The notes under the pieces were generated by a model that saw only the letters and a list, made by a program, of their open reading frames with translations, made no database searches and was not told the DNA's origin. A stretch of 63,401 bases of DNA, counting the filler, from Octopus bimaculoides (Eukaryota): the NCBI RefSeq assembly GCF_001194135.2. It is 4 parts of 4 records of this genome, joined end to end, with 100 filler letters (N's around TTAATTAATTAA, not from the genome) between each part and the next. Parts side by side here need not be neighbours in the genome. Positions count along the whole stretch, not along the records: positions 1 to 16,019 come from NC_068994.1; positions 16,120 to 41,673 come from NC_068996.1; 2 more parts are not named here. One strand, written 5' to 3'. Below, piece after piece: positions 1,507 to 27,653 of the stretch. Each line of letters begins with the position of its first letter. Position 1 is the stretch's first letter. The position numbers were made by a program, and so were the translations under genes.

Positions 1507-1588
1507 ATTCTGCTGATGATAGTCCGACCTTTTGTGAGATATATAATTTTTATCTTACTAAAATTGACTTGAAACCATGGTACAGAAT
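1507..1588 (+). ncRNA. Type I hammerhead ribozyme, canonical core
   Basis: ATTCTG(1507-12) CTGATGA(1513-19) tAGTC..GACTt (helix II) GAAA(1571-74) CCATGG(1575-80) TA(1581-82) CAGAAT(1583-88). Helix I is a perfect 6 bp, helix III is a palindrome and the triplet is GUA. Confidence 0.85.
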
Positions 1589-2182
1589 ATAGATCGGTAA
1601 ATGTTTTTATTTTTCATTCCCTTTCGAAATTATCCCTACTTTTTGTGGTATGTANNNNNNNNNNNNNNNNNNNNNNNNNNNNNNNNNNNNNNNNNNNNNN
1701 NNNNNNNNNNNNNNNNNNNNNNNNNNNNNNNNNNNNNNNNNNNNNNNNNNNNNNNNNNNNNNNNNNNNNNNNNNNNNNNNNNNNNNNNNNNNNNNNNNNN
1801 NNNNNNNNNNNNNNNNNNNNNNNNNNNNNNNNNNNNNNNNNNNNNNNNNNNNNNNNNNNNNNNNNNNNNNNNNNNNNNNNNNNNNNNNNNNNNNNNNNNN
1901 NNNNNNNNNNNNNNNNNNNNNNNNNNNNNNNNNNNNNNNNNNNNNNNNNNNNNNNNNNNNNNNNNNNNNNNNNNNNNNNNNNNNNNNNNNNNNNNNNNNN
2001 NNNNNNNNNNNNNNNNNNNNNNNNNNNNNNNNNNNNNNNNNNNNNNAGAGAGAGAGAGAGAGAGATGAAAAATTTGGAGGGAGATTCCACGTGGTGGGAG
2101 ATATAAAATAAGATTTAAGGTGAAAAGCACAGAACACTTGTTTGTGAAGATAAAGATTATGTAATCCATTACAATATGTACA

Positions 2183-2216
2183 GAGTCGACTGGCTTCGCT
2201 TCGCTAATCATGAATC
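2183..2216 (-). ncRNA. Decayed copy of the A3:U8 minimal hammerhead in the inverted left arm
   Basis: Minus strand reads GATTC ATGATTA GC GAA GC GAAG CCAG TC GACTC. Confidence 0.5.
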
Positions 2217-3752
2217 AGTGGTATGAAATCATGATAAGTTATTCATTTAATCTTGCATAGAGGCAAGTATGATACAACTCTGCGGTTATACAGGAGAGTA
2301 TATCTCAAGAGGAATAGAATTTATTCTCCAGCAAAATTACTTCATGTTTGACTCCAATGCATACCGACAAAAATTTGGAGTTGCAATGGGAACAAAGGCA
2401 GCCCCCGTTCTTGCAAACCTGGCAATGGGCTATTGGAACTAACAGTATATCAGGAGTCATTCACAAAATTCGGAAATCCCCTTTCCCAATACATAAAGCA
2501 AAATTGGAAAAGATATTTAGATGACTGTTTCATTCTATGGAATGAGAGCATGGAGAAACCTTTGGAATTCAAAAGATTTCTCAATAGTATAAATACAAAT
2601 ATACAATTCACGATGGAACGCAACAAAAAGGGACTCCCTTTTCTAGATATACTCATCAAAAAAGTAAATAAAAAATAGAAACCGACATATTTTATACAAA
2701 ATTGCAGACTCGAAACAATGCTTATTATTTAGCTCATGCCACCCGAGACATATCAAAATAAATATCCCATTCAATCTAGCGAGAAGAATATGCACTATAG
2801 TGTCGGAAAAAACACCAGAAAACTCAGACTACAAGCACTCAAAAACATACTCATCGACGGACACTACCCAACTTCGCTTATCGATGATGGGATAAAACGT
2901 GGAAAAAAGAATTAATATACAAATACTAAGAGAGGTCAAACAAAACAACACACCCACTTTAAATATATTACCTTATATTTCCACATACAACCTCAGAAAC
3001 AACGAAGCATATAGCAAAACCTTCCAATACTACATAAAGACTCTAAGCTGTATGAAATTCTACACACCGATAAAATTATTAAAAGCAACAAACGGCCAAA
3101 ACCACTAAAGCGGATACTCACAAATGCAAAACAATACTTAAAAATAACGGAAGCAAGAGTTAAAAAACGTGGACGACCGAACTGTGGAGCATGTCCCAAC
3201 CTAATGGAAGGCTCAGAATTCCATTTTAAACAAAGACAAAAATTAAAACTAATTTCTTTTGCGCCTCTGAAAATCTCATCTACATCATAAAATGTTCCGG
3301 CTGCAGCAGGAATTATATAAGGTTAACAGGAAGTCTCGAAGATGTAGATCTACACTACATAGACAACAATCTACTACCTCTAATACTGTCAAATGCCATT
3401 CAGTGGTCACATAGACAGATGTACTAAGAAACGCCAACCATAATTCACAATATTCCCGCTATACCAATGCATGGAAAGGACTCAACTAAATAAAGAGGCT
3501 GCATGTATTGAAAAATACAAACCAGAACTATATCATGAATATATAATGGACTTCACAAATAAAAAGCAACCAGAAAAATGGAAAAAATTTACCTCCCCTT
3601 AACTAAGATCCACTGATTATCCCGTTAGCTAAAAAAAATTATATTCATTGATTATCCCCCTTGAGCTATACTCTCCTGTATAACCGCTAAATTGTATCAT
3701 CCTTGCCTCTACGCAAGATCAAATCAAAATCTTACTATGATTTCATAATATT

Positions 3753-3785
3753 GAGTCATGATTAGCGAAGCGAAACCGGTCGACT
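3753..3785 (+). ncRNA. Minimal type I hammerhead-like motif with variant core ATGATTA
   Basis: gAGTC ATGATTA GC-GAA-GC GAAA CCGG TC GACT: helix I AGTC/GACT, 2-bp helix II, palindromic helix III, GUC triplet. Confidence 0.65.
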
Positions 3786-26030: not shown

Positions 26031-26384
26031 TCTATCGCTTGGTAAACAAACTCTGCGAATACGTCTTCAGGGGTTAACTGTTTTAGCTTTGTTTCGTTAT
26101 TAACATTCTCTTTCTTCTGGTGTTAAAAAAAAAAAAAAAATTAAGTTTGGGGAATTCGAGTTTAGGAAGAAGTTTACTTCTTGTCATACATAACTGTTAG
26201 ACCGAATCCTATTTCATGCGGATTGCTTTTAAATCAACAAAATATTTTCAAGGTTAAACTGTTTTCTTCACAGAGGGTGATAATGGTGATAATGATGATG
26301 AGGACGACGACGACGACGATGATGATGATGATGATAATGGTGAAGATGGTCATGATGATAGTGGTGATGAGAAAGATGCTAAAG

Positions 26385-26482
26385 CTGCGTGGCACCCTGG
26401 GCAAACGTCTTCTTCTATAGCCTCGAGTCGACCAAAGACTTGTGAGTGGATTTGGTAGACGGAAGCTGAAAGAAGTCCGTTG
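26385..26482 (+). mobile_element. SINE family A middle fragment
   Basis: CTGCGTGGCACCCTGGGCAAACGTCTTC..GGATTTGGTAGACGGAAGCTGAAAGAAG. Confidence 0.85.
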
Positions 26483-27220
26483 TGTGTGTATGTGTGTGTG
26501 TGTGTGTGTGTGTGTGTGTGTGTGTGTGTGTGTGTGCGCGCGTGTGATTTCCATAATATTTGAGAGACCGAAACTATAATATTTGTGTTAATTAAAATCA
26601 GCTACACTCTATTCCTGAAGACTTTCACTTTAGCAGTTATGTGAAATCCCTAGCCTAGGTGCGATATAATAATCTTCGCCGCCTCAGTACAGGTAGAGAG
26701 AGAGAGAGAGAGAGAGAGAGAGAGAGAGGGGGGAGAGAGAGGAAAAGAGAGGGAGAGAGAGACGAAGTGATGCAAAATAACATTTGTTCGGGTAGGGCCT
26801 AAACGGACATGCAAATCTTGATGATTTCTACAAAGCAATCCTGAGACACTACTTCATTGTTGCAGCTGAAAGAAAGGAAACGAAAAGACAGAAATCATAG
26901 TAAGAGAAAACTGGCTGATAGACAAAAAGATAAAAACAGCTGAGTGTGTGTGTGTGTATGTGTGTGTGTGTGTGTGTGTGTGTGTGTATGTGTGTGTGTG
27001 TATGTGTATATATGTATGCATATCTACATATATATACATAATATATATATATGTATATATATAAATATATGTGTATTTTTGCAATGTGTACAAATGATAC
27101 GGTAAAAATATATAAATAGCTACCAGGGTAGCAAAAATACACATAAGTGCCAAGGATGTTACAGCCTACTTATAAAGGTAGAAATTCCAGGCTTAAGTGA
27201 AATGTTTTTATATAACATAG

Positions 27221-27653
27221 ATAAATTAAGAAATGGAGTTAAACGTAGGTGTTACTCAAATCTGTATGCTTCCGACATATGTTTCGAAGAAAACATTGAT
27301 ATTATTCCGGAGGGGTTAAAATGATGTAAAACAATGCAATCATCTCGTCAGGACAAAAAAGATAAGAGAAACAAAACACATCGATAAGCCATTTTAACTA
27401 AATGTGATTACCGCGTATATGATGAAAGGAACGCTAAAAAATAACTTACCAGCGTTCCCCTTCATCATATATGCAGTAATCACATTCAGTTAAAATGGTT
27501 TATTGATGAGTTTTATTTCTTTCTTTCCTCACGAGATGATTGCATTGTTTTATTTTATTTAATTTCCTCTGGAATAATACTGTTTTCTTCAAAATATGTC
27601 TGAAGCATAAAGATTTGAATAACACCTGCGTTTGACTCCATTTCTTAATTTAT
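27221..27653. mobile_element. About 430-bp foldback of two head-to-head pLTR-like arms, each with a hammerhead motif
   Basis: Arms 27221-27435 and 27451-27653 with a 15-nt spacer. Minus 27355-27270: TGTC CTGACGA GATGA..TCTTC GAAA CATATG TC GGAA. Plus 27524-27605: TTTC CTCACGA GATGA..TCTTC AAAA TATG TC TGAA. Confidence 0.8.

What the first reader, a model, noticed from the sequence alone, without database searches (positions are those of the whole stretch)
1507..27653. Family-specific palindrome code in hammerhead helix III across the window
Seen: about six unrelated motifs all have GAAA-palindrome-TH with no loop, and the palindromes differ: A-CCATGG-T, A-CCGG-T, A-CATATG-T, A-CG-T, A-CAGCTG-T, A-TTGATCAA-T. 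Known: loop-less palindromic helix III favours dimeric cleavage in Penelope-type hammerheads. Inference: distinct palindromes could make co-resident families dimerise and cleave only with themselves, an RNA-level self-recognition system. Sense-antisense foldback copies would add regulation by dsRNA.
Basis: inference. Interest (0 to 1): 0.75.

Follow-up and report, generated by a model that had tools for sequence, protein, structure and literature searches.

The report
Penelope hammerheads with drifting palindromes
The window holds worn copies of small hammerhead RNA motifs from six repeat families, likely all ends of Penelope-type jumping genes; their palindromes are real and likely let two RNA copies pair and cut each other, a published design, but unrelated families share palindromes and close relatives swap them, so they are not a family code on their own.

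Summary
The observation mostly holds. All six GAAA-palindrome-TH motifs are present and belong to genome-wide type I hammerhead repeat families. Three fit a whole hammerhead in the window (CCATGG, CATATG, and CCGG with an A3-U8 core); the others are decayed or truncated. Palindromy far exceeds chance (17 of 30 strong palindrome-blind hits perfect, against 0.5 hits in shuffles). One motif sits 3' of a broken Penelope-like RT/GIY-YIG gene. Unrelated families share palindromes (CCGG, CG, CCATGG, CATATG, CTAG), and sister lineages swap them by compensatory changes no faster than in helix I (3 of 29 pairs versus 5 of 44). In a double hammerhead, helix I is also exchanged between partners; it is predicted to separate 1,406 of 1,423 family pairs, the palindrome alone only 7. 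Fold-back copies match the known Penelope insertion layout. Best reading: known dimer-type hammerheads, palindromes kept by selection for pairing and diversified by drift, with self-preference a by-product. A few sister pairs differing only in palindrome give a clean mixing test. This scan reached similar verdicts earlier on other genomes. Cleavage is untested.

The parts
1507..1588 (+). Intact type I hammerhead: helix I 6 bp, CUGAUGA core, long helix II, helix III palindrome CCATGG; predicted cut after 1582. Host repeat runs from about 1418 into the gap at 1655.
   Evidence: family anchor 217 matches vs 6 control, 95 of 100 listed carry CCATGG (counted by eye)
2176..2316 (-). Inverted pseudo-LTR copy at the 5' side of the Penelope-like element, with a decayed copy of the CCGG motif at about 2184-2215
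   Evidence: inverted repeat, 141 nt, 84%; sequence
2254..3536 (+). Broken Penelope-like ORF remnant (RT, Cys linker, GIY-YIG region); several frame breaks and stops
   Evidence: tblastn to three natural ORFs of this genome, E down to 6e-90; those ORFs hit RVT_1 (below cut-off) and one hits GIY-YIG (above cut-off); the window fragments alone gave no relevant Pfam hit
3754..3785 (+). Minimal hammerhead 3' of the Penelope-like ORF: helix I 4 bp, core AUGAUUA (A3-U8), helix II 2 bp, palindrome CCGG
   Evidence: 6 of 9 family matches keep CCGG
18314..18405 (-). Intact type I hammerhead: helix I 7 bp, helix II 8 bp, palindrome CATATG, cut triplet GUU. Host repeat about 18115-18456.
   Evidence: 33 of 36 cluster members CATATG (30 loci came from a query that held the palindrome)
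21157..21194 (+). Decayed hammerhead with palindrome CG; the family carries U at core position 6
   Evidence: 11 of 15 listed copies CG, 12 of 15 U6
21549..21751 (.). Old fold-back centred near 21650; its + arm holds GAAA-CAGCTG-TA (21652-21663) but no CUGANGA strand
   Evidence: intact family members
22022..22072 (+). TTGATCAA hammerhead copy 1: core intact, helix I 3' strand missing
22403..22459 (+). TTGATCAA hammerhead copy 2: helix I 6 bp, core C3 changed to G; direct repeat of copy 1 at 381 bp, with a common SINE-like repeat between them
27043..27436 (-). Second CATATG subfamily copy; hammerhead about 27267-27358 with weakened helix I
27438..27684 (+). Mirror-image (head-to-head) arm of the preceding copy, hammerhead core decayed

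Best explanation
These are scattered, mostly worn end-pieces of several co-resident repeat families, likely all Penelope-like retroelements or their non-autonomous derivatives, each carrying a type I hammerhead whose loop-less palindromic helix III is predicted to pair between two RNA copies so that they would cut as a double hammerhead. Shown: motifs, families, palindromy beyond chance, one link to a Penelope-like ORF, palindromes shared across families and switched within them. Inferred: (1) the short helix III is unstable as a hairpin and stable as a duplex, so cleavage would need two copies, most easily two pseudo-LTRs on one tandem transcript, possibly helped by the element's protein; (2) in that dimer helix I is exchanged too, so partner choice would rest on helix I plus palindrome; (3) selection keeps self-complementarity but not the letters, so palindromes drift by G-U-bridged transitions (CCGG/CTAG, CCGCGG/CTGCAG, CCCGGG/CTCGAG) and two-base insertions (CCGG/CCGCGG, CCGG/CCATGG, CATATG/CATATATG); self-preference is a by-product of divergence; (4) fold-backs are insertion by-products.
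For: Palindrome-blind scan of 1,277,387 bases: 30 hits at score >=9, 17 perfect palindromes and 6 G-U or odd-length ones, against 0.5 hits in 4 shuffles. Genome counts against reversed controls: 744/106, 1,411/17, 1,812/42, 12,904/1,091. Helix III hairpin +2.4 to +6.0 kcal/mol, duplex -7.0 to -11.2, for 4 window motifs. The CCATGG cofold MFE equals the double hammerhead, -37.0 against -27.0 for two monomers. 62 of 1,423 between-cluster pairs share a palindrome; 50 of them are under 0.45 identity outside the helices, and helix I separates 45 of those 50. Helix I penalty >=2 kcal/mol in 1,406 of 1,423 pairs; palindrome alone in 7. Double changes in 11 independent sister pairs: helix I 5 of 44, helix II 2 of 33, helix III 3 of 29 plus 2 length changes. 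The TTGATCAA family keeps its palindrome while helix I occurs in two compensated forms. 10 of 13 close pairs in the list are inverted, all head to head, as described in PMC8557442 (passages). Design published in PMC4209133 (parts 1-2 of 4 read).
Against: No cleavage was measured, and nearest-neighbour energies ignore the tertiary core. The double hammerhead was not the cofold MFE for 3 of 4 window motifs, and for the decayed TTGATCAA copy it was worse than two monomers (-29.4 vs -31.2). A Penelope-like ORF is linked directly only to the CCGG motif; for the other five families none was linked. 24 clusters had no accepted self-complementary helix III and were left out of the energy table, as were 53 weak singles. 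The sister-pair sample is small, and counting length changes 5 of 11 pairs differ in palindrome against 4 of 11 in the first four helix I pairs, so modest acceleration is not excluded. CCGG sharing is inflated by a CCGG-targeted search, and the 0.45 threshold splits some related lineages (CCCGGG, CAGCTG). In one Penelope element the hammerhead was dispensable for insertion in vitro (PMC11167929), so what selection acts on is open.
Confidence: 0.78

Rival explanations
1. Selected self-recognition: co-active families are pushed apart in a two-part address (helix I plus palindrome) so that each RNA dimerises and cleaves only with its own kind; in young sister subfamilies the palindrome changes first.
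For: Sister lineages with compatible helix I differ only in palindrome, predicted penalty 6-8 kcal/mol: CCGG/CTAG, CTCGAG/CCCGGG, CCGG/CCATGG. The CTAG copies form one clade (98/95) and the CCGCGG/CTGCAG copies one clade (100/100). 30 distinct self-complementary sequences occur among 54 lineages. All 6 window cross-pairs cofold less stably than the homodimer mean.
Against: Collisions are common. The rate of change does not exceed helix I. CTCGAG and CCCGGG both occur in both supported subclades of one family. CATATG/CATGTG and the CAGCTG clusters are predicted to be cross-compatible. Pairing in cis on tandem transcripts needs no code (inference; review PMC6765202, passages).
Confidence: 0.1
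2. The motifs work mainly as monomers, folded with help from the element's protein or from tertiary contacts of the long helix II; palindromy is a relic or serves RNA pairing for packaging or template switching, not cleavage.
For: 6-8-nt palindromes allow 2-3 bp plus a tetraloop. The PAc hammerhead cleaves only with protein and is dispensable for insertion in vitro (PMC11167929, section 3 part 2). Invertebrate retrozyme hammerheads with short helix III cleave as monomers (PMC7229834, passages).
Against: The central bases cannot pair in a hairpin yet stay complementary through switches, which needs an intermolecular duplex. Monomer helix III is predicted unstable in 4 of 4 window motifs.
Confidence: 0.09
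3. The palindromes arise by a mutational route (CpG decay on both strands, slippage, template switching) or serve as DNA-level sites, with no RNA dimer.
For: CCGG/CTAG, CCGCGG/CTGCAG and TCGCGA/TTGCAA are double CpG transitions; single decay variants are frequent.
Against: CCGG/CATG needs two transversions and CCCGGG/CTCGAG is not at CpG. Palindromy sits exactly between GAAA and UH in dozens of clusters.
Confidence: 0.03

Closest known systems
Minimal and small-palindromic-helix-III hammerheads in pseudo-LTRs of metazoan Penelope-like elements (Cervera and de la Pena 2014, PMC4209133; parts 1-2 of 4 read)
   Same: Type I layout, palindromic 15.2-16.2 and loop 3, extra base after A9, 3-8 covariation in the core, many divergent families per genome, mostly solitary copies, inverted pairs 100-700 bp apart, proposed dimer cleavage.
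   Different: Here palindromes reach 6-8 nt, several helix II arms are 45-60 nt long, A3-U8 and G3-C8 cores occur besides U3-A8, and switching between sister lineages is tabulated. The parts read do not test family specificity.
Dimer-cleaving small hammerhead variants of Penelope-like retrotransposons (Lunse, Weinberg and Breaker, RNA Biol 14:1499; not held, seen only as title and as cited in PMC6765202)
   Same: Diminished palindromic stem III and cleavage as dimers, per the title and the review passages.
   Different: I could not read it, so whether it already lists palindrome diversity or cross-family tests is unknown.
Metazoan non-LTR retrozymes (PMC7229834, passages; bioRxiv 10.64898/2026.07.22.740005, part 1 of 5)
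   Same: Protein-free repeats with type I hammerheads, some working as dimers, proposed to derive from Penelope pseudo-LTRs.
   Different: Those are tandem arrays of 150-450 bp units; the window copies are single, truncated or folded back, with one interrupted direct pair.
Retroviral dimer initiation signals, such as the subtype-specific palindromes of HIV-1 (recalled, from no call)
   Same: A short palindrome that biases RNA pairing towards like partners; the nearest analogue of the proposed code.
   Different: That is a kissing loop acting in trans for packaging. Here the palindrome is part of a ribozyme, is flanked by a stronger helix I determinant and is shared by unrelated families.

Membership tests
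Penelope-type type I hammerhead (PMC4209133) | Core CUGANGA...GAAA...UH, allowing 3-8 covariation | tested here: met
   Intact at 1513, 18398 and 22028; A3-U8 at 3758; damaged or missing at 21162, 21652, 22409, where family members are intact, except the CG family with U6
Penelope-type type I hammerhead (PMC4209133) | Helices I and II closed in type I order, with compensatory changes | tested here: met
   Helix I 4-7 bp and helix II 2-8 bp in 4 window motifs; double changes between sisters 5 of 44 and 2 of 33
Penelope-type type I hammerhead (PMC4209133) | Short palindromic helix III / loop 3 | tested here: met
   17 perfect and 6 G-U or odd-length of 30 blind strong hits against 0.5 hits in shuffles
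Penelope-type type I hammerhead (PMC4209133) | Location in the pseudo-LTR of an RT plus GIY-YIG element | tested here: inconclusive
   Met for the CCGG motif and a related ATGA-core family; no ORF linked directly to the other five window families
Penelope-type type I hammerhead (PMC4209133) | Self-cleavage as a dimer | not testable with these tools
   Only folding energies
Non-LTR retrozyme | Tandem array of 150-450 bp units, each with a complete hammerhead | tested here: not met
   Window copies are single or inverted; the one direct pair (22022-22459) is interrupted and damaged; 3 of 13 close pairs in the list are direct. Other loci were not surveyed for arrays.
Non-LTR retrozyme | Abundant monomeric linear and circular RNA | tested here: inconclusive
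   One family laid on one RNA run: 124 reads from about 6% of the run, both strands alike, no piles of ends
Family-specific palindrome code (proposed) | One palindrome per family, not shared with unrelated families | tested here: not met
   CCGG in 5 clans, CTAG 3, CATATG, CG, CCATGG and CGGCCG 2 each; two or three palindromes inside clusters 3, 4, 7, 14, 15
Family-specific palindrome code (proposed) | Palindrome diverges faster than other helices | tested here: inconclusive
   3 of 29 plus 2 length changes against 5 of 44; only 11 pairs
Family-specific palindrome code (proposed) | Heterologous pairs fail to cleave because of the palindrome | not testable with these tools
   Predicted decisive alone in 7 of 1,423 between-cluster pairs and a few within-cluster sister pairs

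The most novel reading that the evidence does not exclude
Co-active Penelope lineages carry a two-part RNA address (exchanged helix I plus helix III palindrome) that makes trans-dimer cleavage lineage-specific, and a palindrome switch is the first step by which a new subfamily stops cross-cutting with its parent: an RNA-level speciation barrier among transposons, visible in sister pairs such as CCGG/CTAG and CCGG/CCGCGG/CTGCAG.
Probability: 0.1. Interest if true: 0.62.

Novelty: new member of a known kind. Interest (0 to 1): 0.22.

Why it matters
As it stands, this adds a rich set of natural dimer-type hammerheads from one genome and covariation at the palindrome centre, which supports pairing between copies, an idea so far resting on a few in vitro tests. 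It also supplies natural matched pairs: same helix I with different palindrome, and same palindrome with different helix I. These make the partner-choice question directly testable. If self-recognition were selected, it would be a new way for co-resident transposons to stay separate, but the evidence here favours drift.

Tried and rejected
Rfam scan: only microsatellite-driven miRNA matches and one snoRNA match among the 150 of 174 listed, no hammerhead. Pfam on 7 window ORF fragments: nothing relevant; the element was identified through relatives instead. A tight anchor for the TTGATCAA family found 10 matches, 4 of them family members; a DNA search found 43 matches. Search for helper ORFs upstream of the other families: long-ORF listing and tblastn gave no direct link; GIY-YIG-like frames lay 0.5-1.9 kb from three other motifs (L090, L115, L317; recognised by eye). 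Sequencing runs: no RNA holder listed. One raw RNA run and two contig sets were laid on the CATATG family only and showed no cut-site signal; such a library is not expected to show one. Literature: three searches on hammerhead with palindrome, dimer, heterodimer or double hammerhead and two on Penelope and Terminon hammerheads listed no paper on a family code, but the library lacks most subscription papers, and the Lunse paper was not held. Supplements were not read; supplementary figures S2-S5 of PMC4209133 may already show palindrome variety. Rejected: treating the ACGT strings at 7028 and 63359 as ribozymes; dsRNA regulation as the purpose of fold-backs (orientation fits the insertion mechanism); calling the copies retrozymes.
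Full report
Setting. The window is a pack of four stretches (1-16019, 16120-41673, 41774-60601, 60702-63401) of a 2.34-Gb animal genome, G000. The first stretch lies on contig C14 and the second on C16, so the six motifs come from two unlinked places. Earlier notes of this scan call the genome octopus-like; I did not test that.

Observation. All six strings exist. A type I descriptor blind to the sequence between GAAA and UH found 7 hits at score >=5, 4 of them perfect palindromes, against means of 2.05 and 0.05 in 20 local shuffles. 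Whole hammerheads in the window are CCATGG (1507-1588), CATATG (18314-18405, minus strand) and a mini-motif with an A3-U8 core and CCGG (3754-3785). The CG copy has a damaged core. The CAGCTG copy is one arm of a fold-back cut inside helix II and has no CUGANGA strand, although intact members are abundant elsewhere. Of the two TTGATCAA copies, one lacks helix I 3' and the other has G at position 3. Rfam lists no hammerhead among the 150 of 174 matches shown.

What they belong to. The CCGG motif lies about 220 bases 3' of a broken ORF (2254-3536) that matches three natural ORFs of this genome by tblastn. These carry RVT_1 below the Pfam cut-off, and one carries GIY-YIG above it. An inverted 141-nt copy of the 3' end flanks the 5' side. 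This is the Penelope-like layout described in PMC8557442 (passages); the Cys linker points to the Neptune clade by that paper's description. A related family carries the same unusual core and palindrome with different helices I and II. For the other five families no ORF was linked, so Penelope membership there is inferred from architecture and insertion pattern.

Palindromy is real genome-wide. In 60 evenly spaced 10-kb stretches (528,819 called bases) there were 12 hits at score >=8 against 1.6 in shuffles. In 1,277,387 palindrome-blind bases there were 30 hits at score >=9: 17 perfect palindromes, 6 with G-U pairs or a central unpaired base, and 7 others, against 0.5 hits in 4 shuffles. Two palindrome-blind genome patterns gave 1,411 and 1,812 matches against controls of 17 and 42. 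Among their first 30 loci each: 11 and 11 were perfect, 3 and 7 G-U or odd, 8 and 5 broken, 8 and 7 without helix I. The central bases cannot pair in a hairpin, so their complementarity points to pairing between copies (inference). Helix III costs +2.4 to +6.0 kcal/mol as a hairpin and gains 7.0 to 11.2 as a duplex. For the CCATGG motif the unconstrained cofold is the double hammerhead (-37.0 against -27.0). For CATATG and CCGG it beats two monomers but is not the minimum, and for the decayed TTGATCAA copy it does not beat them.

Within families. Young families are nearly uniform: 95 of 100 listed matches CCATGG (counted by eye; 3 unrelated, 2 single changes; the flank is equally uniform), 17 of 20 TTGATCAA (the query held the palindrome), 6 of 9 CCGG, 11 of 15 CG. 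Yet palindrome-blind clustering of 302 hits into 124 clusters puts two or three perfect palindromes in one cluster five times: CCGG/CTAG, CCGG/CCGCGG/CTGCAG, CTCGAG/CCCGGG, CCGG/CATG, TCGCGA/TTGCAA. On trees without the palindrome, the CTAG copies are one clade (98/95; 9 rows) and the CCGCGG/CTGCAG copies one clade (100/100; 13 rows), but CTCGAG and CCCGGG both appear in both supported subclades of their family (9 rows). Most switches are transitions that pass through a G-U pair, several at CpG, or two-base insertions; CCGG/CATG needs two transversions.

Between families. After dropping 53 weak singles and 24 clusters without an accepted self-complementary helix III (misparses, chance hits, decayed singles and odd-length near-palindromes), 47 clusters gave 54 lineages. 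62 of 1,423 between-cluster pairs share a palindrome, and 50 of these are under 0.45 identity outside the helices (median of all pairs 0.19). CCGG falls in 5 clans, CTAG in 3, and CATATG, CG, CCATGG and CGGCCG in 2 each. CCGG is inflated by a targeted search (744 against 106), and the threshold splits some relatives (CCCGGG, CAGCTG). CTAG, CATATG, CCATGG and CGGCCG collisions rest on partners found without asking for the palindrome. The CG pattern has 12,904 matches against 1,091, mostly one family plus at least two others. Four of the six window palindromes are therefore shared with unrelated families; CAGCTG was seen only in likely relatives and TTGATCAA only in its own family.

What decides partner choice. 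In a double hammerhead the CUGANGA-helix II-GAAA strand of one copy meets the UH and helix I 3' strand of the other, so helix I is exchanged along with helix III (follows from the type I layout; dimer as in PMC4209133 fig. 1A, legend only). With in-register energies the median heterodimer penalty is 15.3 kcal/mol from helix I and 8.7 from helix III. At a 2 kcal/mol threshold, 1,345 pairs are separated by both, 61 by helix I only, 7 by the palindrome only and 10 by neither. In 11 independent sister pairs, double changes were 5 of 44 in helix I, 2 of 33 in helix II and 3 of 29 in helix III, with 2 length changes in helix III. This shows no clear acceleration, though the sample is small.

Fold-backs. 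Among the 100 listed matches, 13 pairs lie within 1.2 kb: 10 inverted, all head to head, and 3 direct (counted by eye). The window's fold-backs at 2176/3793, 21549-21751 and 27043-27684 have the same polarity. PMC8557442 describes an inverted 5'-truncated copy at the 5' end as typical, and PMC4209133 reports opposite-strand pairs 100-700 bp apart. A read-through transcript could form dsRNA, but nothing shows use of it. One RNA run gave 124 reads on the CATATG family, on both strands alike, with no piles of ends.

Comparison with what is known. PMC4209133 (parts 1-2 of 4) already reports palindromic helix III, many variable families per genome, core covariation and weak dimer cleavage. The review PMC6765202 (passages) ties dimer cleavage to tandem layout. 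PMC11167929 (passages and section 3 part 2) finds one such ribozyme protein-assisted and dispensable for insertion in vitro. PMC7229834 (passages) and bioRxiv 10.64898/2026.07.22.740005 (part 1 of 5) cover retrozymes. The Lunse paper was not held. Five searches listed no paper on a family code. Earlier notes of this scan on other genomes reached the same verdict; they are not independent support, and my reading was set down before I saw them.

Verdict. Real motifs of a known kind. Palindromes are likely kept for dimer pairing and diversified by drift; they are not a family code alone. Confidence 0.78, interest 0.22, selected self-recognition about 0.1.

Noticed in passing
window 21157-21194; L048, L056, L128, L367: The CG family has U instead of A at core position 6 in 12 of 15 listed copies: a lineage-wide variant or a lineage that spread with a weakened ribozyme.
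   Followed up: partly
window 3758; L285 (A3-U8), L130 (G3-C8), L304 and L243 (U3-A8): All four Watson-Crick versions of the core 3-8 pair occur in this genome.
   Followed up: partly
window 18321; L001-L030: One CATATG subfamily has a GUU cut triplet in nearly all copies, whereas sister subfamilies mostly have GUC; GUU is recalled as a poor cut site.
   Followed up: no
L180, L186, L258, L280, L237: Several families have odd-length near-palindromes with one unpaired central base, which could fold as monomer hairpins or as dimers with a mismatch.
   Followed up: partly
G000-wide; L333-L362: One CG-palindrome family makes up most of the 100 listed of 12,904 matches, so probably about ten thousand copies.
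   Followed up: no
window 3833-4030: A 91-nt-armed hairpin (82% complementary, 16-nt spacer) just 3' of the Penelope-like element.
   Followed up: no
window about 4150-5270: Decayed reading frames that look by eye like a Tc1/mariner transposase; not tested.
   Followed up: no
window 10638-11550 and 12950-13633: Two related gag-like frames, with a zinc-knuckle-like motif visible in the second, likely LINE ORF1 remnants.
   Followed up: no
window 41774-43362 (+): A long frame of repeated Ser/Asp-rich and Lys/Pro-rich blocks, resembling Nopp140/treacle-type nucleolar proteins (resemblance recalled).
   Followed up: no
window 50193-50798 (+): A frame resembling a Tigger/pogo or CENP-B-type transposase fragment (resemblance recalled).
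   Followed up: no
window about 960-1400 and 14880-15340: Two direct copies, 13.9 kb apart, of another repeat, 87-94% alike in ungapped blocks.
   Followed up: no
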